Assembly (NCBI RefSeq): GCF_964213995.1
Contig: NC_135801.1
Span: 108,252,001-108,316,000 of the forward strand
DNA from: Mustelus asterias
Taxonomy: Eukaryota
Direction: 5' to 3'
DNA: 64,000 nt
A program made the translations under genes and the position numbers. Shown in pieces: positions 12,365 through 39,700 of the stretch (position 1 is the first letter of the stretch; the number at the start of each line of letters is the position of its first letter). The notes under the pieces were generated by a model. It made no database searches, had not been told where the DNA came from, and saw only the letters and a program-made list of their open reading frames with translations.

Positions 12365-12548
12365 CTGTGCTATGGAATAGTCAGATGAATTTGCTGCCTG
12401 TAGTCCCTCATTTCCACTTATTCCAACACCAACATGCGCCGTCTGGATCATTCCCACATCATTTGCTCCGTCACCTATTGCTAATGTTATAACTTTCACC
12501 TGTTTCTTCACCATATCAACAATTTCTGACTTCTGAAGAGGAGAAACT
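12365..12548 (-). CDS. ATP8A1: ATP8A1 coding exon, 184 nt: (R)[61 protein letters not shown]
   Basis: Not in the ORF track. TTCAG|AGTTTCTCCT ... GCACAG|GTAACA; GDGANDV hinge motif; phase 2 start matches the previous exon. Confidence 0.97.
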
Positions 12549-13007
12549 CTGAATAAAGTAAAAAGGAAGATAAATCAGAGTGAAACAGAACCTCAGTAGG
12601 CTAGAAGAATGGCTATTCCTTTATTTTCATATATTTTAATAGTAAAAGTCTTTCCCATGGTATGTTTAGTTTGTACTTTTGTGTAGTACTTCTGTATCTC
12701 CTTAATCATAGGCACATTTCTTCTGCCACATCTAATTGAGACTTTATTACCACTGTCTATTAGACCCTTATCCTGGTTTCCCCATCTAGTTTACAAAATC
12801 TGCAGCAAGCCACAGGAAAGTAAACTAAAGCAAAGTAAAAACAATTCAACAGCTTCACATAGAGTATAAATGCTTACTATTGTAAATAATGATCATCGCA
12901 GTTAGAAGAATTTACACTTTCTGCCTCATTAACGGGCAGGAAGTCGCTGCCTGCTTCGTGAAAATCAGGATGGGCAGGCGTGAGTTTGTATATATGTGTG
13001 TGGTGGT

Positions 13008-14934: not shown

Positions 14935-15577
14935 AGAGCCAAATATTGCAGCTGTTGGAATCTGAAACGAAAACAGAAAGTGCTGGAAAATCTCAGCAGG
15001 TCTGGCAGCATCTGGGAGAGAGAATAGAGCCAACATTTCGAGTCTAGATGACCCTTCGTCAGAGCTGAGCGCAAAGAGAATCAGCGGAGATTTATACATT
15101 GATGGTGGGGGGAATTAGCTGGGGGTGGAATGGGACAAAGGGAATGTAAATGAGGATACAGGAGGCTGAAAAGGTGTTATAAAGGAGTCAATTAAGTGAT
15201 GAGAATGCCTGAATGACAGAACAGAGGTACAGATTGTTAAAGGACTGCCTGAGGAATGTGGCAGTTGCCCTGAACAGCGGGGAGGCAAGAAGGAGAGCTT
15301 GAATGGAAAGTGGAAAACCAGAGGTGACAACACCTCATCTTCCAATTGGGCACTTTACAACCTTCTGGACTGAACATGAAGTTCAACATGAACCCTCTCC
15401 TCCACCTTCACCCCATTTCCATTTATTTTATTTCATTTTGTTTCATCTCATTCATCCATTTTATCATCCTTCTTTCTCACCTCCATTTTTCCACTTTCCA
15501 TTCCAGCTTTCCTTCTCCCTCTACCCCCCCACTCCACTTTTTCAGCTGCTGAGAATTTCCAGCATTTTCTGTTTTTG
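14935..15577. mobile_element. Penelope-like element remnant with internal inversion
   Basis: 15-bp TSD tccaagagaaagcta (14920-14934 / 15578-15592); plus-strand 15328-15387 encodes QHLIFQLGTLQPSGLNMKFN (typical PLE GIY-YIG C-terminus); inverted ends aaaacagaaagtgctggaaaatctcagcag / ctgctgagaatttccagcattttctgttttt. Confidence 0.85.
15028..15066 (-). ncRNA. Minimal type I hammerhead ribozyme motif (PLE family B), stem III mutated
   Basis: Minus strand AGCU-CUGACGA-A-GGGUC-AUCUA-GACUC-GAA-AUGU-U-GGCU. Confidence 0.7.
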
Positions 15578-17067
15578 TCCAAGAGAAAGCTATCTATTTA
15601 CCAGTCTGTTCTGCACGTGCCTTTCACCAAAATGTACATCAAAACTAGATGAACATATTCCATTGAGCTACACCCAGGTTGTGTTCCCATTTGGTGGTGT
15701 GATTTTCCTGGCTCTACCTTTTAAGTGGGCATCCTACTAAATTATCATTCTATCTCGTTCATGAACACTGATGAAACTTTGCTGTCCAATAAAGTATTCT
15801 TATACCTTTAAAACTGAAACCAAACATTCTCAAATAGTCCTAGTAATTAACAGAGCTTCTCTCTGAATCAACTTTTTTTAATACCCTTTAATAACCACCT
15901 GTTTTTCCAATTTTTTTAAAATTGAAAATTAAAATTTGATTATCCCCTTAAACTTCAGGTAACTTTCCCTTTTGAGTGCTCGAAATGGCAACTCATCAAT
16001 TTGTTTTATTAATTCCAATTTTGGAAGCAATTATGCTTAGTTTTAAATGGTGCTTTAACAGAAATGCTTGCAGCTAATTTCAAGGTCACTCCATGTCTCC
16101 CCTTTTTGAGCACTGTGTCTTGGCAGATAACAAATGGAATAAAGTCAAATTGTTAAAAGGCAAAGACTTTGTTCAAATTTTGACCATGCTGTCAATGGAA
16201 AGCGTTAACTTCTTTGCTTGCTTGCAAAAGGGCAGAACAAGAAACCTTCTCAAAGGTACACAATTGTATCTGCCTCCAGATTGAAGAAGAATCGAACACC
16301 ATTTTAAAATGTTTTTTCAGGTCTTAGTTTCTTCCTTAGGAACTGAAAAGCTGAAAAATCCTTCAGTAAGAACTTGAAAAGAAAACACTCAAGAGGGAAG
16401 ATAACATTTTAGATTAAACTCCCATTTGTTTCCAAACCTATTAGCTTCTTGCTCAATTTAAAAAATATATATTTTGATTGTAAACAACACCCACCTTTAA
16501 CTGACTTGACAATGTCTCAGCTGGTTAAAGGTGAGAGTGTGTACCAACCTGCTAATATCTTTGGGTTTGGTCACATTCTGGAATCATGTTTATGAGTTGT
16601 AAATACACCTGGCACAAACTCTTCTGGATCAAGAGGTGGCTGGTTTCTACTCCTCTGTTAAGACCTGGGGCATGCCATTTGTGGAGTCAGGGTGAAGGTC
16701 ATGAATGCCGATGAGGGAGGATTTGGACAATTGGTGTTAATTGTTGACGGCTGCCAGTTTCAACATATTAAACATGCCCACTTGATTACACAATTTCCTC
16801 TGCATGTTTTAAAATTGTTTTCAATTACCATTAAATGCAATTTTGCACTGAAGTGTTAGAGGCATAGAAAATTAGACATGTTTTTCTGGTGTTTCCCACC
16901 CTACCTTTTTGTGTAGTGAAATATGTACAACATATTACTTATATATACTTAATTGCATGCAACTGACAAAGCAATTGGACTATTTACATTTTGCAAGAAT
17001 CAGAGTTTAATTTTTTAATCTTAAAAAACAAACATAGCATTCATAAAATGTTCATATTCTAGCTTAC

Positions 17068-17240
17068 CGGCAGCAGATGACTGCCTTGCAAGACAAAGCA
17101 AGATCCAAAAAAGACTGTCGCACTCCAAATGTCAGGGCATATTTGAGGGTTTTCCCATCTATAATGAGTGCAAAGTCATTGTCCTTGCGCAAAGCATCAC
17201 CTAGAGTATTGCAGTGATGCACGAGTGTTTCCCTTGTTGT
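17068..17240 (-). CDS. ATP8A1: ATP8A1 coding exon, 173 nt: [57 protein letters not shown](R)
   Basis: CACAG|ACAACA ... TGCTGCCG|GTAAGC; residues [15 protein letters not shown] fit ATP8A1 better than ATP8A2. Confidence 0.96.
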
Positions 17241-18199
17241 CTGTGAATTAATTAAAAAAAGTAAATTGGAATACACAAAGAAAAAAATTCTCAGAAAACC
17301 GATAAGTCATCCTACTACTTTCAAAGCAAAAACCTGAAAATTTAAAATGATGAGTTTCACTGAAGGACTTGCCCATCAAAATCTGGTTCATATAAATAAA
17401 AGAAAGTACTGTGGATGCTGAAATTGTGAAATAAAAATCTAGTTCAATGGATTAGAATTGAAACACATTTCAGTTCTTCCACCGTAAAAAGGTGAGGTTT
17501 CTAAAAACCTGATATGAATACCATGATGAATTATTTCCTCGACTCAGGTTAAATCACTGAAAGGAGTGTTTGATCCAGTTTCCATCATTCTATGGTATAG
17601 GTGGATTTTGCAACTAGCAGAATTCCAAAGAAAAGCCAACACTTTCTCATTTCTTCTTGTGCTGATGCTGTAAGTTATTGCAGTGGAGAGGGAACACGGT
17701 AGAGGTACATTTGTTACCTCTGACGAAGAAAAGTCAAATGTACTAATCACATGAAATGTGTTGAATTACAATAATAACTTGTATTTGTACAGCACCTTTA
17801 ACCAGAACATGCAAGGAATCCCCAATAACGGATTTTCAAAATAACTTCAGAATGCAGAGGGCATCTTTGACAAACCTGATCCAAAATTTGAGGGGCTACC
17901 AAATCAATGGACAAGGAAATTCAGTACAAATCAACCACAAGAATTCCCGTCAAGTCACACGAGGGATGGCTCAAAAACAAAATCACATTGCATTGTGCAA
18001 GGGCAAGAAAGAAAGAGGGATAAATATTGAACAGGGCACAGTGAATGATTTTAAATGGGGCAGCTTCCCCAGAACTCCAGTTGTATGTGGCTTGCCTTAG
18101 TCTGTAGTGCTGGATGACCATTACATTCATTGTACTCATCAATGATCTGGGGGAGGGGGATAGATATGTCAGTGAACATATTTTAGTCTCAGTTGTGTC

Positions 18200-18650
18200 A
18201 GCCATGGGTCAGTTGGTAGCATTCTCACTCCTGAGTCACAAGGTTCCAGGTTCCAGTCACATTCCAGGACTTGAGCACAAAGATCAAGGCTGGCACTACA
18301 GTACAACACCAAGGGAATTCCGCACTATTGGTGGTATTGTATTTCAGAGACATTAAGGCACGGCCCAATCTGTTGCATCAGGTGGATGCAAAAGAACCCC
18401 TGGCGCTGTTTCGAAGAGCAGGGGAGTTATCTGGGGAGATCTGGACAATATTTATTCCTTAATCAAAATCATAAAAACAGATTATCTGGCTATTATCAAG
18501 TTACTGTTTTTGGGAGTTTGCTGAACATTTATTGGCTGCTGTGTTACCTACATTAACTCATTGACTACACTTCAAAAGTATTTCATCAGCTTTGAGATGT
18601 CCATTGGTTGTGAAACCTATTATATAAATGAGTGTCCTTTCTTTCTTTAT
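18200..18650 (+). mobile_element. DeuSINE (SacSINE1-like): tRNA head, Deu domain, L2-like tail
   Basis: Head gggtcagttggtagc...ggttccagtc; Deu-like caggtggatgcaaaagaacccctggcgctgtttcgaagagcaggggag; tail tatataaatg...ctttctttctt. Confidence 0.75.
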
Positions 18651-18974
18651 TTGTAATTTTGTGTTAGAGTCAGTAATTTATAAGAATGAAATAGATTGAA
18701 AATGGATCTGGGAAGATTGAGCAAACAAGCCCAAGACGAGCAAATGACAGTCAATGGAGTTCAGAGCATATTGATTCTGTCTACAGGCAGAAAATTCCAG
18801 GACTTACAATCACAATCAGTCACCTCATGGGCAAGCATGCTCCCACTCTATCATTGCCATCAAGCCAGGGAATTCAACCCGGGCCCAATGTTAAGTATGG
18901 GAGGGCAGGCCAGGCCAGGAACAGCACCAAGCATACCTAAAAATGAGATGTCAACCTGTGAAGCTACACTCAGT

Positions 18975-21140
18975 AAACAAAGAACAAAGTACTGCACAGG
19001 AACAGGCCCTTCAGCATGCCAAGCCTGTGCCAATCATGATGCCCCAACTAAACTAAAAGAAACCTTCTGCTCTTACTCGGTCCATATTCTTCTATTCTCT
19101 CCTTAGTCATGTACCCATCCAAATGCCTCTTAAATGTTGCTAATGTGCCTGCTTCCACCACCACCTCTGGCAGCACATCCCAGGCACCCACCACTCTCTG
19201 CATGAAAAACTCCCCCCCCCCCCCCGCCGCACATCTCCCTTAAATTTTTCCCTTCTCACCCCCTTGTAATTGACACTTCCACCCTTGGAAAAAGCCCCTG
19301 ATTATCCATCCTGTCCATGCCTCTCAATTTTGTAGACCTCTATCAGGTCTCCCCTCAGCCTCTGTCTTTCCAGTGAAAACAATCCTAGTTTATTCAATCT
19401 CTCATCATAGCAAACAGCCCCGAGACCAGACAACATCCTGGTGAACCTTCTTTGCACTTTCTCCAAAGCTTCCACGTCCTTCTGGTAGTGTGGTGACCAG
19501 AACTGCATACAATACTCTAAATGTGGCCGAACCAAGGTTTTATATAGCTGCAACATGATTTTCCAACTCCTGTACTCAATGCCCTGGCTGATGAAGACAA
19601 GCATGCCATATGCCCTCTTAATAATCTTGGCCACCTGTGTTGCCACTTTTAGGGATCCGTGTACCTGCACGCCCAGATCCCTCTGTATGTTAATGTTCCT
19701 AAGGGTTCTGCCATTGACAGTATAATTCACACCTAAATTTGATCCTCCAAAATGCATCATCCAGATTAAACTCCATCTGCCATTTCTGTGCCCAAGGCTC
19801 CAATCTATCTATATCCTGTTGTATCCTCTGACAATCCCCGGCACCATCAGCAATACCACCAATCTTTATGTCATCCACAAACTTATTAATCAGACTACCC
19901 ACATTTTCCTCCAGATCATTTATATATACTACAAACAACAGAGGTACCAGCACAGATCCCTGCAGAACACCATTAGCTAGAGATCTCCATTCTGAAAAAC
20001 ACCTTCCCACTGCTACTCTGTCTTCTATAACCAAGATGTGGAGATGCCGGCGTTGGACTTACTATGGTTAAGACAAGTTAAAGTCCAACAGGTTTATTTG
20101 GTAGCAAAAACCACTAGCTTTCGGAACAGGCTGTTCCTTCAGCCTCTATAACCAAGCCAGTTCTATATCCATCTAGCCAGCTCACCCCGAATCCCATGTG
20201 ATTTTAGTTTTTGTACCAGTCTGCCATGTGGGACTTTGTGAAACACCTTACTAAAGTCCATATAAATTACACCCATAGCCCTTCCCTCATCAATTATCTT
20301 TGACATTGCTTCAAAAAACTCAATCAAGTTGGTGAGACATGCCATTCCCCGTACAAAACCATGCTGCCCGTCACTAACTAGTCCATTTTCTTCCAAATCT
20401 GCATATATCCTGTCCCTCAGTATCTTCTCCAAAGCTTCCCCACCACTGATGTCAGGCTCACCAGCCTATAATTTCCTGGATTATCCCCACTTCCTTTCTT
20501 AAAGAAGGGAACAACATCGGCTATTCTTCAGTCCTCTGGAACCTCACCTGTGGTCAGAGGAAGTGAAGATATCTGTTAAGGCCCCAGCTATTTCTCCCCT
20601 TGCCTCCCACAATAATCTGGGATAGATCCCATCTGGCCCCAGGGACTTGTCTAGCTTAATGCAATTTAGGATACTCAACACTTCCTCCTTCGATATATTA
20701 ACATTCTCTAGAGCGTTCACACACCTATCTCTGAACTCAACATCCGACATGCCCTTATCCTTGCTGAGTACGGATACTAAGTACTCATTAAGGATCTCAC
20801 CCACTTCCTGTGGTTCCATGCATAACTTCATTGTCCTTGAATGGGCCTACTCTTTCTCTTGCTACCCTCTTGCTCCTAATATATGCTTAAAAAGCCTTGG
20901 ATTCTCCTTGACCATGTTTGCTAAAGACATTTAATTGCCCCTTTTAGCCCTCCTAATTCCACGTTTAAGTTCCTTCCTATTTTCACTATACTCCTCAAGG
21001 GCTTCCTCAGTTTTAGATGCCTTGACCTATCTATTGTATGCTTCCTTATTCCTTTTGACTGAGCTTACAATTTCCCTTGTCATTCATAGTTCCCGAATCC
21101 TGCCATTTCTATCCTTCATTTTTACTGGGACATGCCTGTC
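18975..21140 (-). mobile_element. CR1 LINE, 5'-truncated and degenerate, interrupted by a PLE fragment
   Basis: ORFs 19302-19760, 19699-20034, 20163-20432, 20544-20831 (QHGF, DFSK.F.KVPH, RPHLEYC). Confidence 0.9.
20036..20144 (-). mobile_element. Short Penelope-like pLTR fragment (family A) with truncated hammerhead
   Basis: 12-bp TSD tctataaccaag (20024-20035 / 20145-20156); minus strand CUGA..AGGAACAGCCUGUUCC-GAAAGCUA; tail agtccaacgccggcatctccacat. Confidence 0.82.
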
Positions 21141-21244
21141 AGGATTACTTATGTGCCAAACAGTGGAAACAGCATGTAAGACAGAGCTAAGAAATCTCAC
21201 AACCAATGGGTCAAATCTAAGCTGTGCAGTCCTGCCCATCCAGC

Positions 21245-21553
21245 TGCACTGCTGCCTCACAGCTCCAGGGACTAAGATTCAATTCCAGCCTCAGGTCACT
21301 GTCTGTGTGGAATTTGCACATTCTCCCTGTGTCTGCGTGGGTTTCCTCCAGGAGTTCCGGTTTCCTCCCACACTCCAAAGATGTGTGGGTTAGGGTTGAT
21401 TGGCCATGCTAAATTGCCCCTTAGTGTTGGGAGGATTAGCAGGGCAATACTTAGGGTTACAGGGATAGGGTCTTGGCGGGGTTGTTGGTGGCGCAGGCTC
21501 GATGGGTCGAATGGCCTCCTTCTGCACTGTAGGGTTTCTATGATTCTACATGA
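21245..21553 (+). mobile_element. HE1 SINE, slightly 5'-truncated
   Basis: V core and CR1-like tail. Confidence 0.88.
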
Positions 21554-21569
21554 TTGGGGCAGGGGGGGG

Positions 21570-24456
21570 AAGAGCAATCATCCTCAACACCGGTGCCCCA
21601 CAAGGCTGTGTTCTCAGTCGCCTACTATACTCCTACATCTATGACCGTGTGGCCAAATTCCCTTCCAATTCTATTTTCAAGTTTGCTGACGACAGTGGGT
21701 CGGATCTCAAACAATGATGAGACAGAGTACAGGAAAGAGATAAAGAATCTGGTGAACTTGTGCAGCAACAATAATCTCTCCCTCAATGTCAACAAAATGA
21801 AGGAGATTGTCATCAACTTCAGGAAACGCAAAGGAGAACATGCCCCTGTCTACATCAACGGGGACGAAGTAGAAAGAGACGAGAGCTTCAATTTTTTAGG
21901 TGTCCAGATCACCAACAACCTGTCCTGGTCCCCACATGCTGACACTATAGTTAAGAAAGCCCACCAACGCCTCTACTTTCTCAGAAGACTAAGGAAACTG
22001 AAAACAGATGGAGCTCTGGAGGAATACAGAGAGAGTAGGAAAGAACTCAAACGGGGAGTTAGAAGGGCAAAAAGAGGTCACGAGATGTTCTTGGCAGGCA
22101 GGATTAAGGAGAATACTAAGGCATTCTATTCATACGTTAGGAACAAAAGAGTTGTCAGGGAGAAAATCGGACCTCTCAGGGACAAAGGAGGGGAATTATG
22201 CTTAGAACCCAAGGGAATAGGGGAGATCCTAAATGAATACTTTGCATCGGTATTCACGAAGGAGAGGGGCGTGTTAACCGGGAGTGTCTCGGAGGGAGGT
22301 GTTGACCCGTTAGAGAAAATCTCCATTACAAGAGAGGAGGTGTTAGGTTTTTTAGGGAACATTAAAACTGACAAAGCCCCAGGGCCTGATGGCATCTATC
22401 CTCGACTGCTCAGGGAGACGAGAGATGAAATTGCTGGGCCTCTGACGGAAATCTTTGTCGCTTCTTTGGACACGGGTGAGGTCCCTGAGGATTGGAGGAT
22501 AGCGAATGTGGTCCCGCTGTTTAAGAAGGGTAGCAGGGATAACCCAGGAAATTATAGGCCGGTGAGCTTGACGTCCGTGGTAGGGAAGTTGTTGGAGAGG
22601 ATTCTTAGAGACAGGATGTATGTGCATTTAGAACGGAATAATCTCATTTGTGACAGACAGCATGGTTTTGTAAGAGGGAGGTCGTGCCTTACAAATTTGG
22701 AGGAGTTTTTTGAGGAAGTGACAAAAACGGTTGATGAAGGAAGGGCCGTGGATGTCGTCTATATGGATTTCAGTAAGGCATTTGACAAAGTCCCACATGG
22801 CAGGTTGGTTAAGAAGGTTAATGCTCATGGGATACAAGGAGAAGTGGCTAGATGGGTGGAGAACTGGCTTGGCCATAGGAGACAGAGGGTAGTGGTCGAA
22901 GGGTCTTTTTCCGGCTGGAGGTCTGTGACCAGTGGTGTTCCGTAGGGCTCTGTACTGGGACCTCTGCTATTTGTGATATATATAAATGATTTGGAAGGTG
23001 GTGTAACTGGTGTAATCAGCAAGTTTGCGGATGACACGAAGATGGCTGGAATTGCGGATAGCGAAGAGCATTGTCGGGCAATACAGCAGGATATAGATAG
23101 GCTGGAAAATTGGGCGGAGAGGTGGCAGATGGAGTTTAATCCGGATAAATGCGAAGTGATGCATTTTGGAAGAAATAATGTAGGGAGGAGTTATACAATA
23201 AATGGCAGAGTCATCAGGAGTATAGAAACACAGAGGGACCTAGGTGTGCAAGTCCACAAATCCTTGAAGGTGGCAACACAGGTGGAGAAGGTGGTGAAGG
23301 CGGCATATGGTATGCTTGCCTTTATAGGACGGGGTATAGAGTATAAAAGCTGGAGTCTGATGATGCAGCTGTATAGAACGCTGGTTAGGCCACATTTGGA
23401 GTACTGCGTCCAGTTCTGGTCGCCGCACTACCAGAAGGACGTGGAGGCATTGGAGAGAGTGCAGAGAAGGTTTACCAGGATGTTGCCTGGTATGGAGGGT
23501 CTTAGCTATGGGGAGAGATTGGGTAGACTGGGGTTGTTCTCCTTGGAAAGACGGAGAATGAGGGGAGATCTAATAGAGGTATACAAGATTATGAAGGGTA
23601 TAGATAGGGTGAACAGTGGGAAGCTTTTTCCCAGGTCGGAGGTGACGATCACGAGGGGTCACGGGCTCAAGCTGAGAGGGGCGAAGTATAACTCAGACAT
23701 CAGAGGGACGTTTTTTACACAGAGGGTGGTGGGGGCCTGGAATGCGCTGCCAAGTAAGGTGGTGGAGGCAGGCACGCTGACATCGTTTAAGACTTACCTG
23801 GATAGTCACATGAGCAGCCTGGGAATGGAGGGATACAAACGATTGGTCTAGTTGGACCAAGGAGCGGCACAGGCTTGGAGGGCCGAAGGGCCTGTTTCCT
23901 GTGCTGTACTGTTCTTTGTTCTTTGTTGAAATTTGGCACGTCAGCTACGACTCTCACCAACCTTCACAGATGCACCATAGAAAGCATTCTTTCTGGTTGT
24001 ATCACAGCTTGGTATGGCTCCTGCTCTGCCCAAGACCGCAAGGAACTACAAAAGGTTGTAAACGTAGCCCAATCCATCACGCAAGCCAGCCTCCCATCCA
24101 TTGATTCTGTCTGCGCTTCCCGCTGCCTCGGCAAAGCAGCCAGCATAATTAAGGATCCCACACACCTCGGACATTCTCTCTTCCACCTTCTTCCGTCGGG
24201 AAAAAGATAGAAAAGTTTGAGGTCACATACCAGCCGACTCGAGAACAGCTTCTTCCCTGCTGCTGTCAGACTTTTGAATGGACTTACCTTTCATTAAGTT
24301 GATCTTTCTCTACACCCTAGCTATGACTGTAACACTACATTCTGCACTCTCTCGTTTCCTTCTCTATGAATGGTATGTTTTGTCTGTACAGCACGCAAGA
24401 AACAATACTTTTCACTGTATGTTAATACATGTGACAATAATAAATCAAATCAAATC
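21570..24456 (+). mobile_element. Rex1/Babar LINE fragment split by a CR1 insertion
   Basis: IILNTGAPQGCVLS..., KFADD, FLRRLRK|FG continues after 23928; tail gtgacaataataaatcaaatcaaatc. Confidence 0.88.
21998..23927 (+). mobile_element. Young CR1 LINE, 5'-truncated; RT frame interrupted by one stop codon
   Basis: ORFs 21554-22945 and 22973-23851 in one frame separated by TAG 22943-22945 (SGVP*GSVLGP); 4-bp TSD gaaa; tail (gttcttt)n. Confidence 0.93.
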
Positions 24457-24459
24457 AGA

Positions 24460-27940: not shown

Positions 27941-28293
27941 ATAGAATAGAATCATAGAATCATAGAAACCCTACAGTGCGGAAGGAGGCCATTCGGCCCA
28001 TCGAGTCTGCACCGACCACAATCCCACCCAGGCCCTACCCCCACATATTTACCCGCTAATCCCTCTAACCTACGCATCTCAGGACTCTAAGGGGTAATTT
28101 TTTTAACCTGGCCAATCAACCTAACCCGCACATCTTTGGACTGTGGGAGGAAACCGGAGCACCCGGAGGAAACCCACGCAGACACGGGGAGAATGTGCAA
28201 ACTCCACACAGACAGTGACCCGAGCCGGGAATCGAACCCGGGACCCTGGAGCTGTGAAGCAGCAGTGCTAACCACTGTGCTACCGTGCCGCCC
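27941..28293 (-). mobile_element. Young HE1 SINE, full length
   Basis: Reverse complement of the 14260-14600 type; (catagaat)n tail. Confidence 0.93.
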
Positions 28294-28329
28294 CTATGTG
28301 GATACTATGTGGATAAAACTCACATTCAA

Positions 28330-29300
28330 GGCGATTTTCCCAGCCTGCTGTTCTGCTTGAGCAGCGCAACGGGCCGGGAGATATCAGCGGAGGCGTTTCA
28401 TGGGTTTCCCGCTGGGCGCCATGGCCTCCTCGACCAAGGGTGCGAGATCTCCACGACTAAAATTTCCAGTGTAATCAGCTCGGCACTGGAAAACAGCTGA
28501 TACAATTATTTTCACCCTTAAAATGATCCCGGTGGAGGGAAGAGAGGCCATTGAGGCCCCCCGGGAAGTAGGAGGCAAGAGTGGGGCGCCCTGGCACTGC
28601 CAGGGTGCAAACAGGTACTCTCCAAGGGGCACTTTGGCACTGCCCATGGGACATCGGGCAGCACTAAGGGAGCAGAGCGATTGGTGGGCGGTCCCACTGC
28701 CACTCTGCATTGGGATGACTGGGAGAGGGGGGGGGGAGGAGGTGATCGCGGTTGCAGGGGGAATGGAAATCGGGAGATCGGGGCTGGCCGGGTTGGGGGA
28801 TGAACATCACGGCTTGCTCGGGGACGTCCACAAGACCAGCAATCGGGCTGGCCAGCGATCTGGAGGCTGGTAATATGGGGCCACTGCGCATGCGCCAATC
28901 GCCGCACTGACAGATTAGTTCATTAAGAAGTTTAACAACACCAGGTTAAAGTCCAACAGGTTTATTTGGTAGCAAAAGCCTGTGGCTTTTGCTACCAAAT
29001 AAACCTGTTGGACTTTAACCTGGTGTTGTTAAACTTCTTACTGTGTTTACCCCAGTCCAACGCCGGCATCTTCACATCAAGATTAGTTCATGCACAGCGG
29101 CCCGTTCAACGCAATGCTGCTGGCCTTGCAGGCAGGAATAGGACCCACCCCCTGATTTTCAGAGTGAATCACGCTGAGGCACTCTGTGATGCACTGAGTG
29201 ACAGAGATTCATTCTGGGAATCACGCTGAAAAAACTCATGCAATTTTCTCCCATTTTCCCGCAAATTGGGACTTGGAATTTTTTGGGGCAAATTCCGGTC
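28330..29300. mobile_element. GC-rich non-autonomous DNA transposon (Harbinger-like), interrupted by a PLE fragment
   Basis: Ends ggcgattttccc / ggcaaattccggtc resemble the 5073-5201 MITE termini; internal ggcactgcccatg...cgggcag shared with 48030-48345. Confidence 0.5.
28924..29079. mobile_element. Penelope-like pLTR fragment (family A) forming a perfect 57-bp inverted repeat
   Basis: Arms 28924-28980 and 28984-29040, loop tgt, then tail ...ccagtccaacgccggcatcttcacatc; 12-bp TSD agattagttcat (28912-28923 / 29080-29091). Confidence 0.9.
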
Positions 29301-30476
29301 ATTATGTCTGTTGCAACATTTGTGTTAAGAACTCCGCTGAAAATTTGTAGTGGGTTCATATTTCCCAATATAGGCCCATGAGGTGGTAACTTTCATAATT
29401 TCCACACAAGTATATTCAAACATGGGCCACAAGATGCTTACTGTAGACTGAAGTGAGCAACGCATAATGTTCTCATATTAACAGTGAAGCTAATGGCCAC
29501 AGGTGAGTGGCAGATGAAGGGTTCAATGGGAATATTGAAAAGTTGCTGTCTGAGTTGCACTCCTCCATCATTAGCTTCCCGTCTCTCAGTCCGCCTCACC
29601 TTTGAAATACAGGCGAAGTTGCTGAATTCGCACTGAAAATATGAATTAATCTCGTCACAAAGTTAAATCTTGTCCCATCCTAAATACCCTTTTAACAAAG
29701 TGATGTGCGTCATTGCTACTAAATGACCTCTCTGGTACTGAAAATTAACCATTACAAATGTGGAGGATCATTCTTTCAGGCTTTAATTATTGATGGGCGA
29801 TTTTAAAAATGCATTTTAATTATTTTCCTCTCAAATTCAGTCTTTCTTTCCCTCTTTTAATTTATCTTTCACGTGGTTCGGCATTGAATATACCAACTCT
29901 AATTTATACTTCATGTTCAGTCCTTGTGCAACTAATATTTCAATTCTTCAATCTGGTTGAATATGGACATACACAGGTTCTTGCTCAGGTACTCAGGTGT
30001 CAGAAGCCTTCTTTCACTTGCTCTAACTTTATCAGTTTGCATCTTCAACAATTTGCCACGCAAAAGAAATTATTAAAAACCTAAACATGCTAGCAAGGGC
30101 AGGTCTAACTAATGGCAGAAATCATTAGAAAACCTGCTACTGCAAAGTCTAAACCAAGATAGCTGTGCTGGGAACAATAGTGCATTGCCAGAGGTATAAT
30201 ACAAACTCAGCAATAAAGAACAGATAATTGTTATTTTCTGTTGCATCAAAGGTCACAAAGGAAGTTTAGAAATAAAAACAGCCCTCAAAAGGGATTGACT
30301 ACAAATTGCCCCTTTACAGCTGTCAACATTGATAACTATCAGGGGTGACATTTATTATGCACAGGAGTGATGCAAAGCACAGAACCATTCATTTAAGTAT
30401 ATGGAGCAGCGTCTGTTTTTTAGACATTAATGTACATTAAAGAAAGGTACATTTTTAAAGTGAGTGACTGACATTT

Positions 30477-30598
30477 GTGCCAGAATTTATGGCCTCGCCT
30501 GTCGAGGCTCGTAAGATCCTGTCTGAGGCCAACGGAGAATGCCTGTGAGCCTCACCCACCCTGATTCTGGGGCGGGCGAAGTGGTAAAATTCCGGCCC
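30477..30598. mobile_element. MITE related to 5073-5201
   Basis: Termini gccagaattta / taaaattccggcc. Confidence 0.6.
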
Positions 30599-31073
30599 TG
30601 GTGTCCACAAGTCTTTGAAGTGACAAGGGGATTGGCCAGTTAGAGGCACAGACAGGCGTTTCTGTGGCCGCAATCAAGACTCCAGGATGGTGTGTTGCCT
30701 CCCTGGTGCCAAGGTCAAGGACGTCTCTGAGCGCTTGCAGGACATTCTTAAGGGGGAGGGTGAGCAGCTAGAGGTCGTTGTACATATTGGTACCAACGAC
30801 ATAGGAAGGAAAAGGGATGAGGTCCTGAAGTGTGAATATAGAGAGTTAGGCAGAAGACTAAAGTGCAGGACCTCGGAGGTAGTAATTTCAGGACTACTAC
30901 CGCTGCCACATGCTAGTGAGAATATGAATACGAGGATTAGGCAGATGAATGCGTGGCTTGAGAGCTGGTGCAGGAGGCAGGGATTTAGATTTTTGGATCA
31001 TTGGGATCTTTTCTGGGGAAGGGCTGACCTGTTCAAGAGGGCTGGAGAGGGACTAACATTCTGGCGGGGAGAT

Positions 31074-31411
31074 CATAGGATCATAGAAACCCTACAGTGC
31101 AGAAAGAGGCCATTTGGCCCATCGAGTCTGCACCGACCACAATCCCATCCAGGCCCTACCCCCATATCCCAACATATTTACCCACCAATCCCTCTAACCT
31201 ACACATCTCAGGACACTAAGGGGCAATTTAGCATGGCCAATCAACCTAATGCGCACATCTTTGGACTGTGGGAGGAAACCGGAGCACCTGGAGAAAACCC
31301 ACACAGACACGAGGAGAATGTGCAAACTCCACACAGACAGTGACCCAAGCCGGGAATCGAACCCAGGTCCCTGGAGCTGTGAAGCAGCAGTGCTAACCAC
31401 TGTGCTACCAT
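31074..31411 (-). mobile_element. HE1 SINE inserted in CR1 ORF1
   Basis: 5-bp TSD gagat (31069-31073 / 31412-31416). Confidence 0.9.
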
Positions 31412-33404
31412 GAGATTTGCTAGAGCCACTCGGGAGGGTTTAAACTAGTTTGGCAGGGGGGTGGGATCCAAAGCAGTAGGGAGACAGAAGAGAAGTTTGA
31501 GGACAGCACAGAAGTTAAGGAGAGCACATTAAGTAGCAAAGGCAGTGTCAGTAATACTAGTACCAGACAGATCAGGCAAAAGCAGGACAGAGAGCAAGGG
31601 AAGTCCAGATTAAACTGCATTTATTTCAATGCAAGAGGCCTGACGGGCAAGGCAGATGAACTCAGGGCATGGATGGGTACATGGGACTGGGATATTATAG
31701 CTATTACTGAAACATGGCTAAGGGAGGGACAGGACAGGACTAGCAGCTCAATGTTCCAGGGTACAGATGCTATAGGAAAGATAGAACAGGAGGTAAGAGA
31801 GGAGGGGGAGTTGCACTTTTGATCAGGGAAAGCATCACGTACTGAGAGGGGATATATCCGAGGGTTCGGCCACTGAGTCTATATGGGTAGAACTGAGAAA
31901 TAAGAAGGGGGAAATCACTTTGATAGGGTTGTACTATAGGTCCCCAAATAGTCAGCGGGAAATTGAGGAGCAAATATGTAAGGAGATTACAGATAGCTTT
32001 AAGAAAAATGTGGTAATAGTTGGAGATTTTAACTTTCCCGACATTGACTGGGACAGCCATAGTATTAGAGGGTTGGATGGAGAGAAATTTGTTGAGTGTA
32101 TTCAGGAGGAATTTCTCATTCATTATGTGGATGGCCCGACTAGAGAGGGGGCAAAACTTGACCTCCTCTTGGGAAATAAGGAAGGGCAGGTGACAGAAGT
32201 GTTAGTGAGGGATCACTTTGGGACCAGTGACCATAATTCTATTGGTTTTAAGATAGCTATGGAGAATGATAGGTCTGGCCCAAACGTTAAAATTCTAAAT
32301 TGGGGCAAGGCCAATTTTGAAGGTATCAGGCAGGAACTTTCAAAAGTTAATTGGGGGAGTCTGTGGGAAGGCAAAGGGACGTCTGGTAAGTGGCATGCTT
32401 TCAAAAGTGTGTTAACCAGGTTCAGGGTAAACACATTCCTCTTAGAGTGAAGGGCAAGGCTGGCAGAAGTAGGGAACCCTGGATATAGAGGCCCTGGTCA
32501 AGAAGAAGAAAGAGGCACATGACATGCATAGGCAGCTGGGATCAAGTGAATCCCTTGAAGAGTATAGGGGGTATAGGAGTAGAGTTAAGAGAGAAATCAG
32601 GAGGGCAAAAAGTGGACATGAGATTGTTTTGGCAGATAAGGCAAAGGAGAATACAAAGAGCTTCTACAAATACATAAAGGGCAAAAGAGTAACAAGGGAG
32701 AGAGTAGGACCTCCCGAGGATCAAAAAGGTAATCTATGTGCAGATCCACAAGAGATGGGTGAGATCATAAATTAATATTTCTCATCAGTATTTACTGTTG
32801 AGAAAAGCATGGATGTTAGGGAACTTGGGGAAATAAATAGTGATGTCTTGAGGAATGTACATATTACAGAGGTGGTGGTGCTGGAAGTCTTAAAGTGCAT
32901 CAAGGTAGATAAATCCCCGGGACCTGATGAAGTGTATCCCAGGACATTGTGGGAGGCTAGGGAGGAAATTGCGGATCCCCTAGCTGAGATATTTGAATCA
33001 TCGATAGCCACAGGTGAGGTGCCTGAAGATTGGAGAGGGGTAAATGTTGTTTAAAAAGGGCTGCAGGGAAAAGCCTGGGAACTACAGGCCAGTGAGCCTC
33101 ACATCTGTGGTGGGTAAATTGTTGGAAGGTATTTTGAGAGACAGGATCTACAGGCATTTAGAGACGCAAGTACTGATTAGGGACAGTCAGCATGGCTTTG
33201 TGAGTGGAAAATTATGTCTCTCAAATTTGATTGAGTTTTTTGAAGGGGTAACCAAGAAGGTAGATGAAGGCAATGCAGTTGATGTTGTCTATATGGACTT
33301 TACAAGGCCTTTGACAAGGTACCGCATGGTTGGTTGTTGCATAAGGTTAAATCTCACGGGATCCAAAGTGAGGTATCTAAATGGATACAAAATTGGCTTC
33401 TTGA

Positions 33405-33535
33405 AAGAACAGTAAGAAGTCTCACAACACCAGGTTAAAGTCCAACAGGTTTATTTGGTAGCAAATACCATAAGCTTTCGGAGCACTGCTCCTTCGTCAG
33501 ATGGAGTGGATATCTGTCCAACGCCGGCATCTCCA
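33405..33535. mobile_element. Penelope-like pLTR fragment (family A), internally inverted, inserted in CR1 RT
   Basis: TSD cttcttga (33397-33404 / 33536-33543; 13 bp with one mismatch); minus-strand pLTR followed by plus-strand tail gtccaacgccggcatctccac. Confidence 0.88.
33468..33504 (-). ncRNA. Minimal type I hammerhead ribozyme, intact catalytic core
   Basis: Minus strand CCAU-CUGACGA-A-GGAGC-AGU-GCUCC-GAA-AGCU-U|AUGG: stem I CCAU/AUGG, stem II 5 bp, palindromic AGCU stem III. Confidence 0.8.
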
Positions 33536-34613
33536 CTTCTTGACAGAAGCCAGAGGGTGGTTGTAGAGAATTGTTTTTCAAACTGAAGGCCTGTGACCAG
33601 CGGTGTGCCTCAGGGATAAGTGCTGGGTCCACTGTTATTTGTCATTTATATTAATGATTTGGATGAGAATATAGGAGGCATGGTTAGTAAGTTTGCAGAT
33701 GACACCAAAATTGGTGGCATAGTGGACAGTGAAGAAAGTTATCTCCAATTGCAACAGGATCTTGATCAATTGGGCTAGTGGGCTGACAATGGCAGATGGA
33801 GTTTAATTTAGACAAATGCGAGGTGATGCATTTTGGTAGATTGAACCAGGGCAGGACTTACTCAGTTAATAGTAGGGCGTTGGGGAGAGTTACAGAACAA
33901 AGAGATCCAGGGGTACATGTTCATAGCTCCTTGAAAGTGGAGTCACAGGCGGACAGAGTGGTGAAGAAGGCATTCGGCATGCTTGGTTTCATTGGCCAGA
34001 ACATTGAATACAGGAGTTGGAATGTCTTGTTGAAGTTGTACAAGACATTGTTAAGGCCACACTTGAAATACTGTGTGCAATTCTGGTCACCCTATTATAG
34101 AAAGGTTATTATTAAACTAGAAAGAGTGCAGAAAAGATTTATTAGGATGCTACCAGGAATTGATGGTTTGAGTATAAAGAGAGGTTTGATAGACTGGGAC
34201 TTTTTTCTCTGGAGCATAGGAGGCTGAGAGGTGATCTTATAGAGGTCTATAAAATAATGAGGGGCATAGATCAGATAGTCATTATCTTTTCCTAAAGGTA
34301 GGGGAGTCTAAAACTAGAGGGCATAGGTTTGATGTGAGAGGGGAGAGATGCAAAAGTGTCCAGAGGGGCAATTTTTTCACAGAGGGTAGTGAGTGTCTGG
34401 AACAAGCTGCCAGAGGTAGTAGTGGAGGCGGGTACAATTTTGTCTTTTAAAAAGCATTTAGACAGTTACATGGGTACGATGGGTATAGCGGGATACGGGC
34501 TGAATGCGGGCAATTGGGATTAGCTTAGGGGTTTAAAATAAAAGGGCGGCATGGTCAAGTTGGGCCGAACGGCCTGTTTCCATGCTGTAAACCTCTATGA
34601 CTCTATGACAAGG

Positions 34614-35225
34614 TGAAAAAGCTCTTAAAAAGGCACATGGGAGCGATGGCTTTATAGAGGAACAGAGTACAAAAGCAAGGAAGTTATGCTAAACTTTCAT
34701 AAAACACTAGTTACCCTCAGCTGGAGTACTGTGTCATATCTAGGCACTACACTTCAAAAAGTATGTCAAAGTCTCAAAGAGGAAGCAAAGGAGATATACC
34801 TATAATAGTACCAAAGATGAAAAGTTTCAGTTATGTGGAGAGACTGGAAAAAGAGATTTCTGAGAAGGTTAAGGGGAGATTTGATAAAGATGTTGAAAAT
34901 TGATGGAATTTGATGGAGTAAATAATGCAAAACTGTTTCTAGTGGCAGAGGACACTGATTTATAGTAATTAATAAAAGAACTAGAGGTGACATGAGGATT
35001 TTTGATGCAGTAAGTTATGATGATTTGATTTGCACTGCCTGAAAGGGTGGAAGAAGCAGTTTCAACAATAATATTGAAAAGGGAATTGATTATTTCAGAT
35101 AGAAAACTTTGAAGGGCTATGGGGATGAGAGCATGGGAATTGGATTAATTGGATAGCTTTTGCAAAGAGCACAGGCAGACTTAACTGACTGGCCTCCTAC
35201 TGGGCTGTATTACTCTATGATTCTA
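34614..35225 (+). mobile_element. Older CR1 3' fragment (host of the 30629-34605 insertion)
   Basis: PQLEYC-like remnant and tail ggcctcctactgggctgtattactctatgattcta; continues gtgtccacaagtctttgaagtg at 30600. Confidence 0.7.
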
Positions 35226-35809
35226 AGATGCCTTAGAAGAAGAAATATCCCTCTATATTCAATTCATACTTTATTGGGAATCTCCCAGAGAGACCTGCGT
35301 TTGGAATAAATCTCATTTGAAAAGGAACGGAGGGAAAACTTTCACACACAGCTGCAGTTACATCATTACTTCCTTTGTTCTTCTAACTGAGCAGCTAGCT
35401 CTTCTCAATCAACAATCAGAAAGCAAAATATTTCTCTTTTTACAGCTTTAGTGCCACATAATATCAAGCAAATCAGTTAACAATTTATCTTAGTTTGTTG
35501 ACAAAGCAAGCAACCCAAGACGTGATCCAGCTCAATTACTGAAGCAATTCACTTCAGGCTTCAGTGACACTCAGTGTAGGTCTCCTCATTAGTAAATGAT
35601 CAAAATATATATGAGATCACACTTTTAAAAACTGTTTTCTTCCTCCCTCTAAGGCCTCCCACTGACTTGAGGCACTTTCCACTTGAGAGATTGAACATGT
35701 CTGTTGTCAGGGTTCTGAGAGATCTTATGTCACTTTGTAACTAGATGCTAGGAAGTATGCAAGGTGAATTTCATATTGATTTTCTCTTCATGTGTATTTT
35801 TAAAAACCA

Positions 35810-36320
35810 GTTTCCAGGATATGGGCTTCTCTAGGAAGGCTGGTATTTATTGCTCTTCCCTCGTTGATTGAAAGAGGTAGTGGTCAGCTGTCTTCTAGAA
35901 TGGCTACACTGCATGTGATAAAGGCGCTCAGCTGAGTACCAATAAAGCAATGGACATATTGGAAGTGCCAGGATGGAAGTGTCTTGGAGAGGACTTAAAT
36001 ATGATTGTATCCCCATGTACCTGCTGCCCTTGCCCTTTTAGATGATAGAGGGCTTTGGAGAATCCTTGGCTAGCTACAGCAGTGCACCCTGTTGACATTA
36101 ACATTTCCAGCCATAGTATACTGATGTTGGAGGGAGTGAATGCTTAAGCCGGTGGATGGCTTGTCAATCCAGCAGACTGCTTTGTCCTGGATGATGTCAA
36201 GCCTTGAGTGTTGTTGCAGCTGCATCCATCCAAGAAGTAGAGAATATTTTATTACACTCCTGACTTCTGCTTTGTAGGTTGAAGAGAGAATTTGGGGAAA
36301 TCAGGAGCCTTATTGCCTTC
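35810..36320 (-). mobile_element. Degenerate family B LINE 3' fragment
   Basis: Similar to 10860-11400. Confidence 0.55.
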
Positions 36321-38084
36321 AGCCGACTCTATAGTTTTTATTTGAGACATTAAAATGATTGATAGCTATGAGAGAAATTAGCATGGGTTTACTGTCAATC
36401 ATAGAAGATAACTTGTGATAATTTTAATTATTTTTCACTATTTAAGGTGAATGGTAGTTGAATGAGGCACTTGTGCACAACCTGTTAAAATCATTTGGAC
36501 GGTGTGTTACAGAAGTAAAGGCAACAAATATACTCTAAGAGTTTGCAACAAGAATGGTTTCAAGTCCCAAGAAGCAATAGTAGTTATGTATAGAGCAGCA
36601 GTTCAGTCTGATTTCAAATACAGTTCACCCTACAGCAATAGCGACATTCAGCTTTGGCTGCACAGATGGGCAACTGAAGTGATACCTGGGATAAAAATAT
36701 TTACACACGAAGACTGCTGAAACTGGATATGTTTACAGTGGAGAAAAAAAAGAGGCTCAAGGGAGTTTTCAGAATTCTGAACATAAAATTCTTCTATCAA
36801 GCCATTCCTGTAAAACACTTCAATTTCAACCTTTTCAGTCACAGGGAAACTGGTTTGGGGAGACCAAAAGGAATGAAGGAAGAAAATATCTCCAAGAGCA
36901 AAGGAGTTCCATCATGGATAGGAATATGTCACTTGAAACATGGAACAGTTTTTATTATTATTTATTATTAAAAAAGAAGTATTCCAACTCTGAAGAAAAC
37001 CATGTGAAAGTTTACACATAGTAAAATGGGATAATCCAGCTAACTTTTCTTGGGATAAAGACTGTGCACTTTAACCCTCTACATTGTCTAACATTGATTT
37101 GAAATACAATGGAAGCATTTGACGGAATGTAAACTTCCCGCAGGATCCAATCTCTCAACTGGGAAGTGCAATCAGTCCTATTGTTATACCCAAGCGCAGG
37201 TAAACAAATTGGTTGGAATTTTTGAGAATCCTACAGGGACTTTCCATATTAGCATATTAACAATTAAATTGTTAATATTCTTTGGAGCAATCCACTAATG
37301 GCCATGAGAGATGAGAGAATGAGAGAGCAATTAGGGGAGAGTGTGGATTTGCATGTGATTGCTGGTATCTAAAATTGTAATGAAGTACAGTATTCATATT
37401 TACACAGCTATATTGCACCATTACAATGTGCTGTGCTGCAACTTGTTAAAATGGGAGTAAAATTATCTTTAATGATTGTAAAAAAAATACACCAGGACAT
37501 TCCTATATAGGACCTAAAATTGTTAGCTTTTCTGAAAAGCAAATTAATTCAGCCTCTGATACAAGCAATTATGTCGGCTGAAGAACAGTCACCAAAATAT
37601 ACATCAGAGTTCAAAAGCACACTAGTACATAGTTACACTCAACTACAGGAAAAAACGGTTTTACTGGTTGTCTTTTTTTGGAGAGGAGGGTATACAGCTT
37701 GTGTGAATCTATATTCTACAGCACAGACCTACTGTTGATTCAAGTTTTTTGGTTATATTACCATACAGAGTACACATTTTCCTGAAGTGTGTGTTTACAT
37801 GTGCATACAAATGCAGTTGGGGCAGTTATTCTCCTTAATTTGCAATCAGTCCGAATCTGGTCAGAATCAATGACTTGTGCAAAAGGCAATAAGAGTTGGG
37901 AAAAGTCATGCAGGCAATAAACCAAAAAAAGGGAGTATGCATATCATGGCATATATTAGTTTTATGGACCTTTTTTTTCCCCATGATTCAGACTGGAACT
38001 GACACAGCATAAGTACATTGAGGTTATGCAATTGTAGAAGTCTTATCTCCATTAGTACGCATTGAAGAGCAATGCGACATCAGA

Positions 38085-39700
38085 GAGTTTATAGAGTCAT
38101 AGAATAGGTACAGTGCAGTAGGAGGCCTTTCAGCCCATCATGTCCATGTCAGCTTTCTCTGCAAGAACAAATGTTTAAGCCCCACTCTTCTGCCCTTTTC
38201 CTGAAAACCTACAAATTCTCTCTTTCAATGCTTCTCCAATTCTCTTTGGAAACTCAATTGTCTCTGCCTCTACAACACTCTCAGACAATATGTTCTAAAT
38301 CCTCACCATTTGCTGCATTAAAAAGTAGTCTCATGTCGGTGTTGAGCTTTTTTTTGCTAATCATATTAAATAGATGTCCTCTAGTTCTCAACCTCATTGC
38401 CAATGGGAACAATTTCTATCTACTACAGATTCCTCATGGTTTTGATCCGTTCTATCATGTCTTTCCTGAACTATTTCTTCCTTAAGGAGAACAAACCCGG
38501 CTTTGCCAATCTACCCAGGTTGCTGAAGTCCCTCATACCTTCATAGAACCATTTACCACTACTCAGTTTACTGTCACCTCAACTAACTTTATATCCATGC
38601 TGGATAAAAGCAAATTACTGCGGATGCTGGAATCTGAAACCAAAAGAGAAAATGCTGGAAAATCTCAGCAGATCTGGCAGCATCTGGAAGGAGAAAAAAG
38701 AGCTGACGTTTGGAGTCCAGATGACCCTTTGTCAAATCTGGACTCGAAACTTCAGCTCTTTTCTCTTTTGGTTTCATATCCATGCTGTTACATTTCCTTT
38801 TATTCTGTGGGCTTCAACTTTGGTGGCAATGTTGCACTTCACCAAACATCTTTTGGAAGTCCATGTACACCTCATCAAACATCTCCATTACCTCATCAAA
38901 CAACTCAATCAAGTTAAACACGAGTTGCCTTGAACAAATCCATGCTGGCTTTCCCAAATTTAATCTACACTTGTTGAAACAGCTATTCTAATTTTGTCCC
39001 AGACCAACGTTTCTAAAAGCTCATCCACCATCACAACTAACTGACTGGACCATAGATGTTGTGTTTATTCTTTCACTCTTTCTTGAACAAGGTTGTAACA
39101 TTTGTAATTCACCAGCCCTCCGGAACCCTTCTGTATCTAAGGAGAATTGCAAGATTATGGCCAGTGTCTCTGCAATATCCACCCTCACTTCCTCAGTGTC
39201 CATGGATGCCTCTCATCTGATCCTGGTGCCTTATCAATGTTAAGTGCAGCCAACCTTTCTTATACTCCACCTTTATCAACTTTTAGCCCATCCAGCATCC
39301 CAAATACATTTTCTTTCTCTATGACTTTGGCAGCATCTTCTTGTCTGGCAAAGATATGCAAAGGACATATTCACCCATGTCCTCTGCCTCCATACTTAGA
39401 CTGCCTTAATGGTCACTATTTGGCCTCATTCTTTCACTTAATATCCTTTTACTATTGATGTGCTTATAAAAGTCGTCAGGATTCCATTTTATGTTAGCTG
39501 CCAGTCTCTTCTATTCTATATTGCCTCTCATTTCCTTTTCACTTCCCCTCTGAACTTTCTATAATTACCCTGGTTCTCACTTGTTTTATCAACTGGAAAT
39601 CAGTCATATGCTCTTTTTTTCTGCATCATCTCTCACTCTTGATTCTTCTCGACATCCAGACAGCCTTATCGTTCCCCCATGTCGGAATGTACCTTGAATG
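38085..39700 (-). mobile_element. Degenerate CR1 fragments
   Basis: CR1 tail at ~38085-38160; remnants LAIILQFSLDT, ANVTTLFKK. Confidence 0.65.
38603..38775. mobile_element. Penelope-like pLTR fragment (family B), internally inverted, degenerate hammerhead
   Basis: 12-bp TSD atatccatgctg (38591-38602 / 38776-38787); homologous to 14935-15066; fold-back gagctgacgtttggagtccagat / atctggactcgaaacttcagctc. Confidence 0.85.

What the first reader, a model, noticed from the sequence alone, without database searches (positions are those of the whole stretch)
14935..38775. Five micro-insertions of two hammerhead-bearing Penelope-like families, mostly inverted, with ribozyme motifs on the host transcript strand
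Seen: insertions of 643, 109, 156, 131 and 173 bp (14935, 20036, 28924, 33405, 38603) with TSDs of 15, 12, 12, 8-13 and 12 bp. Family A (tail ...agtccaacgccggcatctccacatc, stem III AGCU) and family B (tail ...ccagcatccgcagtaatttgctttt, stem III ACGU). Four of five join the terminal tail to an inverted pLTR segment. The four most complete hammerhead motifs (intact, mutated or truncated) all read on the minus strand, i.e. in ATP8A1 pre-mRNA. Knowledge: PLE pLTRs carry minimal type I hammerheads thought to cleave as dimers, and PLE inserts often show inversions. Inference: a recurrent integration route leaving only ribozyme-sized fold-back footprints, seeding introns with potential self-cleaving or hairpin RNAs. 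With n=4 the strand bias could be chance.
Basis: partly seen in the sequence, partly recalled or inferred. Interest (0 to 1): 0.7.

Follow-up and report, generated by a model that had tools for sequence, protein, structure and literature searches.

The report
Ordinary Penelope stubs, no strand bias
The five short inserts are end-pieces of two very common jumping-gene families of a known kind, their small ribozyme motifs face either way in host genes equally often, and their paired ends suggest that the element likely copies the front of one RNA twice at once from both cut DNA strands.

Summary
The five inserts are real, with 12-15 bp target duplications, but they are ordinary for this genome: truncated Neptune/Nematis-type Penelope-like elements, with 153,544 and 27,404 exact motif matches genome-wide and about 84 inserts per Mb of intron. 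Insert 2 is not inverted, insert 3 has no hammerhead core, and only inserts 1 and 4 have intact cores. The strand bias fails: 36 of 67 intact intronic hammerheads lie on the host strand in 13 gene bodies (P = 0.63). The inverted pLTR plus tail layout is published. What the sample adds: 73 of 73 inverted family A inserts pair one tail-ended arm with one tail-less arm; the two arms start at correlated points (rho 0.75); 46 of 64 targets are symmetric; and arm starts pile up about 30 nt after a TATA box, shifting upstream in the subfamily that lacks it. A small excess (8 of 226 arms) starts at the predicted cut site, in family A only. This fits twin priming by a dimer on one RNA, running off at the RNA's start. 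The scan noted most of these points before, on other DNA of this and other genomes.

The parts
14935..15577 (.). Insert 1, family B, 643 bp, inverted two-arm insert between 15-bp duplications (14920-14934, 15578-15592)
14935..15330 (-). Insert 1 tail-ended arm: end of the GIY-YIG frame, TATA box, intact hammerhead, pLTR end, tail
15032..15062 (-). Intact minimal hammerhead core (C3 at 15062, H17 at 15032); stem III palindrome decayed to AUGU
15327..15577 (+). Insert 1 tail-less arm; starts about 150 nt further upstream in the element than its partner; an internal deletion removes TATA box and hammerhead
20036..20144 (-). Insert 2, family A, 109 bp, single arm, not inverted, inside a CR1-type LINE; starts at C3+5, so the first half of the core is missing; a short inner stretch is replaced by sequence seen in no other sampled copy; 12-bp duplication
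28924..29079 (.). Insert 3, family A, 156 bp hairpin: tail-less arm 28924-28976 (-), tail-ended arm about 28980-29079 (+); both arms start within a few bases of the predicted cut site; no hammerhead core; 12-bp duplication
33410..33535 (.). Insert 4, family A1, 126 bp inside a CR1-type LINE: tail-less arm 33410-33519 (-) and a tail-only arm 33516-33535 (+) sharing 4 bases at the joint; 13-bp duplication
33472..33500 (-). Intact minimal hammerhead core (C3 at 33500, H17 at 33472), stem III AGCU; stems I and II form in the lowest-energy fold
38603..38775 (.). Insert 5, family B2, 173 bp: tail-ended arm 38603-38736 (-) and a short, internally deleted tail-less arm 38737-38775 (+); 12-bp duplication
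38705..38735 (-). Hammerhead with the subfamily's U3:A8 core; G12 changed, predicted inactive, and folded shut by the inverted arm
12356..12553 (-). Host P4-ATPase (ATP8A1-like) exon downstream of insert 1
17064..17306 (-). Reading frame holding the host exon between inserts 1 and 2 (exon limits not mapped)
57960..58085 (-). Host exon upstream of inserts 2-5 (approximate limits)

Best explanation
The five inserts are short end-pieces of two abundant Penelope-like retrotransposon families with no preferred direction in host genes, and they were likely made when a paired element protein cut a symmetric DNA site and copied the first 100-150 bases of one RNA from both cut strands at once. Shown: family identity, copy number, 12-13 bp duplications, two fixed 3' ends about 35 nt apart, exactly one of each end per inverted insert, correlated arm starts, a symmetric target, no strand bias. 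Inferred: a dimer nicks both strands 12-13 bp apart; one 3' end primes at the pLTR end and the other at the tail end of the same RNA; both reverse transcriptases usually stop together, most often at the RNA's 5' end, a start site about 30 nt after the pLTR's TATA box and 4-6 nt before the hammerhead core; host repair joins the two cDNA ends head to head. The inserts are ribozyme-sized because the priming sites lie only 100-150 nt from that start. A few percent of family A templates were likely already cut by the hammerhead. The intronic motifs are likely inert passengers in the host RNA.
For: [quoted passage not shown] Two 3' ends, also seen as loose-end peaks in raw reads of another organism. 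73 of 73 inverted family A inserts are tail + tail-less, 67 of 67 without tail-only arms. Duplications in 64 of 73 against 1 of 300 mismatched flank pairs; mode 12 bp. TG-N16/17-CA centred on the duplication in 46 of 64 against 4% of random sites. Arm starts: rho 0.75, 30 of 55 pairs within 6 nt, shuffled mean 8.3, maximum 20 of 10,000. Either arm may be the longer: 17 against 17 by more than 5 nt, plus 6 tail-only arms. Starts at -10..-2 from C3 in TATA-bearing subfamilies (31 against 11 at -20..-11) but not in TATA-less A1 (4 against 18), Fisher P 4e-5; 1e-4 on independently bounded arms. Family B: 25 of 36 arms that reach C3 stop at -7..0, none at -55..-18. In vitro, a lizard PLE protein cuts and extends both strands, starts at two sites that bound the tail, and is modelled as a dimer (PMC11167929). 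Strand: 36 of 67.
Against: No RNA evidence for the start site or for cleavage. In family B the pile-up coincides with a 4-base palindrome and with a possible splice acceptor, either of which could also fix a joint there. A2, which has the best TATA box, gives only 5 of 70 arms at -10..-2, so the shift in A1 may reflect subfamily age or sequence rather than the promoter. PMC11167929 found no difference in start site between strands and no strict pairing was tested there; it also found no RNA ends at the cut site. The cut-site excess is 8 of 226 arms in 6 inserts against 1-4 in other 2-nt bins, and is absent in family B. Family B pairing was poorly resolved (6 inverted of 56, 5 with duplications). 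One insert has arms that differ by subfamily near the hammerhead, which needs two RNAs or a switch. No full-length element was in the sample.
Confidence: 0.62

Rival explanations
1. Fold-back self-priming: one cDNA is made from the tail end, folds back at a palindrome and copies itself to the pLTR end, giving the inverted arm (proposed in a related form in PMC3846280).
For: Arm starts are correlated, arms are nearly identical and almost always of one subfamily, and several joints sit on short palindromes.
Against: A copy cannot be longer than its template, yet the tail-less arm reaches further upstream by more than 5 nt in 17 of 67 pairs and by more than 15 nt in 7, and 6 more inserts, including insert 4, have a tail-only partner. 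The target is symmetric.
Confidence: 0.15
2. The pile-up of arm starts is a reverse transcriptase stall at the folded hammerhead, or a joint preference, and not the RNA's 5' end.
For: The pile-up borders stem I in both families; family B has a palindrome there.
Against: A stall would be expected where the enzyme enters the structure, on its 3' side, where the rate is low (0.4% per base against 3.1% at -8..-2). The peak moves in A1 although the hammerhead does not.
Confidence: 0.15
3. The stubs are a non-autonomous mini-element (retrozyme- or SINE-like) that multiplies as its own unit.
For: Huge copy number and a sharp 5' wall in family B; short RNAs from solo pLTRs could be the templates.
Against: Lengths and joints differ from insert to insert; no tandem units in the window; longer arms run on into the element's coding frame.
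Confidence: 0.08
4. One reading: the route seeds introns preferentially on the host strand with self-cleaving RNAs that act on the pre-mRNA.
For: Four motifs in the window read on the host strand; two cores are intact.
Against: 36 of 67 intact motifs are host-sense; 31 of 57 without the least certain gene. These hammerheads are reported to need dimers or protein (PMC4209133, PMC11167929). The two intact ones lie 18 kb apart and have stem III sequences that cannot pair; sampled host-sense motifs lie 0.8-100 kb apart.
Confidence: 0.04

Closest known systems
Endonuclease-bearing Penelope-like elements with inverted 5'-truncated pLTR and tail (Adineta vaga Pen2/Pen3a, PMC3846280; overview in PMC8557442 Fig. 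2)
   Same: Head-to-head arms, a 30-40 nt tail on one arm only, short target duplications, TATA plus initiator-like motif in the pLTR, palindromes at joints.
   Different: Duplications of 12-13 bp against 8-10 bp; hundreds of thousands of copies; the one-tail rule is strict here (73 of 73); symmetric TG...CA target.
Neptune/Nematis clades of PLEs (PMC8557442)
   Same: [quoted passage not shown]
   Different: No tree was built; targets are not microsatellites.
Poseidon of Anolis carolinensis, in vitro (PMC11167929)
   Same: Two internal reverse transcription starts bounding the tail; both strands cut and extended; hammerhead close upstream.
   Different: Other clade; the paper did not analyse inverted inserts or 5' ends of genomic copies in the parts read, and found no RNA ends at the cut site.
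Minimal hammerheads of metazoan PLEs (PMC4209133)
   Same: Core, bulged base before stem II, short stem I, palindromic stem III, a U3:A8 variant, solo motifs and pairs on opposite strands 100-700 bp apart.
   Different: None of substance; activity not tested here.
Twin priming of LINE-1 (recalled; Ostertag and Kazazian 2001, not read)
   Same: Both target strands prime on one RNA and give an inverted 5' arm; insert 4 has this non-overlapping form.
   Different: Here both priming sites are fixed, and the arms usually overlap.
Non-LTR retrozymes (bioRxiv 10.64898/2026.07.22.740005)
   Same: PLE-derived type I hammerheads in vertebrate genomes, also in introns.
   Different: Retrozymes are tandem units; these inserts are single or inverted stubs.

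Membership tests
EN+ Penelope-like elements | Reverse transcriptase frame | tested here: met
   RVT_1 E 6e-10 in L189:5389-6918 (family A); family B frame fragmented, no RT hit in the two pieces scanned
EN+ Penelope-like elements | C-terminal GIY-YIG endonuclease | tested here: met
   GIY-YIG E 0.0025 (A) and 0.012 (B), both under Pfam's cut-off, at the end of the frame just before the pLTR
EN+ Penelope-like elements | Direct pLTRs on both sides of a full-length frame | tested here: inconclusive
   No sampled arm continues past the tail into an element body; no full-length copy was fetched
EN+ Penelope-like elements | Optional 30-40 nt tail at one end | tested here: met
   Bimodal 3' ends in both families; one per inverted insert
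EN+ Penelope-like elements | Inverted 5'-truncated copy and short target duplication | tested here: met
   73 of 168 family A inserts inverted, 64 with duplication
Neptune/Nematis clades | CX2-5CxxC linker between RT and endonuclease | tested here: met
   CX4CxxC in both frames (definition from PMC8557442)
Neptune/Nematis clades | Placement in an RT tree | not tested
   No reference sequences at hand
Minimal PLE hammerhead | Core, stems I and II with covariation, palindromic stem III, H at position 17 | tested here: met
   24 variants: 94% of cells paired, 7 of 10 pairs change on both sides, 0 of 500 shuffles reach the score (rows are related and were picked by a motif search); G at 17 in 1 of 142 family A motifs
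Minimal PLE hammerhead | Self-cleavage as dimer or with protein | not testable with these tools
   Needs a bench assay
Rfam hammerhead families | Match to an Rfam model | tested here: not met
   No hammerhead family at E up to 1 in the window
Non-LTR retrozymes | At least two consecutive tandem units, each with a complete hammerhead | tested here: not met
   None of the five inserts has tandem units

The most novel reading that the evidence does not exclude
The hundreds of thousands of stubs are a fossil record of the unsolved Penelope insertion step: a protein dimer cuts a symmetric site, primes one RNA at two fixed sites (one per strand), and runs off at the RNA's capped start next to the hammerhead, much like strong-stop DNA; a few percent run off at the hammerhead cut instead, which would be evidence that this ribozyme cleaves in the germ line.
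Probability: 0.4. Interest if true: 0.6.

Novelty: new member of a known kind. Interest (0 to 1): 0.33.

Why it matters
As posed (introns seeded with host-strand ribozymes) it does not hold. The families still matter as a very large natural data set on two open questions named in the papers read: how Penelope-like elements form their inverted ends with a one-sided tail, and whether their hammerhead cuts in vivo. The counts give sharp predictions for the existing in vitro system: one tail-end and one pLTR-end primer per event, a symmetric target, and run-off at the RNA's start.

Tried and rejected
Host-strand bias: rejected in every count (all family A arms 57 sense to 57 antisense; family B 19 to 27; tail-ended arms 39 to 57, P = 0.08). 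Controls in the same introns: a LINE end 26 to 35, a SINE 227 to 186, so these introns show little strand bias for any of the three. Local clustering: rejected. Rfam search: only chance hairpin matches. Sequencing runs: no RNA holder listed. A search for a full-length element body beyond the tail found none. An extra G before arm starts (a cap trace) was looked at by eye: too few cases free of partner sequence. A small host exon expected between 17306 and 57960 was not found with a recalled motif. Look-up of earlier notes by sequence and by one word set gave nothing. Lunse et al. 2017 (PMC5785218) is not held. One search timed out and was rerun.
Full report
Observation. The five inserts are at the stated coordinates and no other piece of either family lies in the window. 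Target duplications are 15, 12, 12, 13 and 12 bp; for inserts 2, 4 and 3 they are confirmed by 23, 24 and 1 uninterrupted copies of the repeat into which they landed. Insert 4 is 126 bp (33410-33535). The host is a P4-ATPase on the minus strand; the label ATP8A1 rests on the best structure match 6k7g and on recall. The genome is 3.68 Gb and likely a shark's (recall of its repeats and earlier scan notes; not tested).

Anatomy. Insert 1 has a tail-ended arm with an intact hammerhead and a tail-less arm whose hammerhead is deleted. Insert 2 is one arm, not inverted, and starts five bases into the core. Insert 3 is a hairpin without a core; both arms start close to the predicted cut. Insert 4 joins a tail-only arm to a non-overlapping tail-less arm with an intact hammerhead. 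Insert 5 carries the U3:A8 core of its subfamily, has lost G12 and is folded shut by its second arm. So two of five have an intact core.

Families. Exact motif matches number 153,544 for a family A 30-mer and 27,404 for a family B 24-mer. [quoted passage not shown] No tree was built and no full-length copy was sampled. The hammerhead covaries across 24 variants, and 1 of 142 family A motifs has G at position 17.

Sample. I fetched 13 P4-ATPase gene bodies, 5 on the plus and 8 on the minus strand, 1.649 Mb with the window (the strand of g11 rests on fewer motifs), and 43 blocks (0.197 Mb) around exact family A matches at the start of contig C1. The blocks favour young family A copies but not any 5' end. 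Loci L002-L060, picked by similarity, served as references only. 226 of 228 family A arms passed the filter; 50 of 80 family B arms passed and 68 of 80 at a looser cut.

Strand. Intact motifs: 29 sense to 26 antisense in A and 7 to 5 in B, together 36 of 67, P = 0.63, interval 0.41-0.66; 31 of 57 without g11. All arms: 57 to 57 and 19 to 27. In the whole ATP8A1-like gene as sampled: 4 to 4. Density is 84 inserts per Mb against 78 in the window.

Insertion rules. Family A gave 168 inserts: 73 inverted (64 with a duplication) and 95 single (26 with one; 10 of these begin with an inverted remnant). Duplications peak at 12 bp; 1 of 300 mismatched flank pairs gave one. The 3' ends fall at the pLTR end or about 35 nt further at the tail end, as in the lizard element. 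All 73 inverted inserts hold one of each. The two arms start at correlated points (rho 0.75; 30 of 55 within 6 nt, shuffled mean 8.3), and either arm can be the longer, 17 against 17. Family B was resolved poorly: 6 inverted of 56, 5 of them tail + tail-less and one unclear.

5' ends. In family A the stopping rate is 3.1% per base at -8..-2 from C3, 2.0% at -20..-9, 0.7% at -45..-21 and 0.4% inside the core. A TATA-like box lies at -35 in family A outside A1 and at -34 in family B, 29-30 nt before an initiator-like A. A1 lacks the box and its starts lie at -20..-11 (18 against 4), the other subfamilies at -10..-2 (31 against 11). Against this reading, A2 has the box but only 5 of 70 arms there. 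In family B, 25 of 36 arms that reach C3 stop at -7..0, 5 at -17..-8, none at -55..-18 and 6 further up; a palindrome and a possible splice acceptor sit at the same spot. At the predicted cut, 6 arms start at 0 and 2 at +1, against 0.79 per base nearby (Poisson P 2.5e-4, arms not independent; 6 inserts against 1-4 in other 2-nt bins); 5 of the 8 have an independently fixed boundary. Family B has no arm at the cut.

Mechanism. Shown are the counts above. Inferred is that a dimer nicks a symmetric site 12-13 bp apart, primes one RNA at both fixed sites, and that both copies stop together, most often at the RNA's start; repair joins the two cDNA ends. This uses the in vitro results of PMC11167929. 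Pure fold-back cannot give a tail-less arm longer than its partner. The intronic hammerheads are likely inert: no depletion on the host strand, no near partner, and a reported need for dimers or protein.

What is known. Inverted pLTR, one-sided tail, duplications, TATA plus initiator and palindromic joints: PMC3846280 (passages). Same layout and clade features: PMC8557442 (passages). Minimal hammerheads, solo and opposite-strand copies, U3:A8 core: PMC4209133 (parts 1-2 of 4: results, discussion). Two start sites, both strands, dimer model, protein-assisted cleavage: PMC11167929 (parts 1-2 of 4: main text). Retrozymes: bioRxiv 10.64898/2026.07.22.740005 (parts 1-2 of 5). Promoter of Drosophila Penelope: PMC2377424 (passages). 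Review: PMC6765202 (passages). Lunse et al. 2017: not held, known only from that review's citation. LINE-1 twin priming: recalled. Eight searches showed no paper that reports the strict pairing, the correlated arm starts or the pile-up at the start site; subscription papers, Repbase and Dfam entries and all supplements were not seen and may hold them. The scan's own notes report these points on other DNA of this genome (168 notes fit the look-up) and of other genomes.

Verdict. Real, ordinary members of a known class; the strand-bias idea is refuted; the family-wide end statistics are a modest, testable contribution already noted elsewhere in the scan. Interest 0.33.

Noticed in passing
L265 (G000:C1:2066500-2069800), about 914-1230: An inverted family A insert whose two arms start at 0 and +1 from the predicted hammerhead cut, with about 100 bp of unrelated filler between them; the cleanest single case for a cleaved template.
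   Followed up: partly
L249 (G000:C1:745444-748473), about 889-1550: A 659-bp inverted insert whose two arms both start at C3 -5, with filler between them; fits run-off at a shared RNA start with capture of other sequence.
   Followed up: partly
L254 (G000:C1:1271400-1281399), about 1036-1204: The two arms of one insert differ by subfamily just after the hammerhead, which points to two RNAs or a template switch.
   Followed up: no
family B pLTR, e.g. window 15062-15095 on the minus strand: The bases before the hammerhead look both like TATA plus initiator and like a branch point, pyrimidine tract and splice acceptor; Drosophila Penelope has an intron ending at stem I (PMC4209133). Host-sense copies could act as cryptic acceptors.
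   Followed up: no
tail ends in the sample: The bases after the tail begin with AT in at least 66 of 120 family A and 37 of 55 family B arms: a ragged element end, priming by short homology, or a target preference.
   Followed up: no
window 20024-20156, 33397-33548 and many sampled loci: Inserts often sit in CR1-type LINE copies, several at what looks like the same few LINE positions.
   Followed up: no
13 sampled gene bodies: A tRNA-type SINE shows a slight host-sense excess (227 to 186, P = 0.049), unusual in direction, not corrected for clustering.
   Followed up: no
window 21554-23851 (+) and 62457-63683 (-): Long, nearly open LINE reverse transcriptase frames, one fused to a second LINE type.
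   Followed up: no
G000:C4:75739406-75740047: A P4-ATPase C-terminal match over 211 profile positions in one piece with three stops: possibly a processed pseudogene.
   Followed up: no
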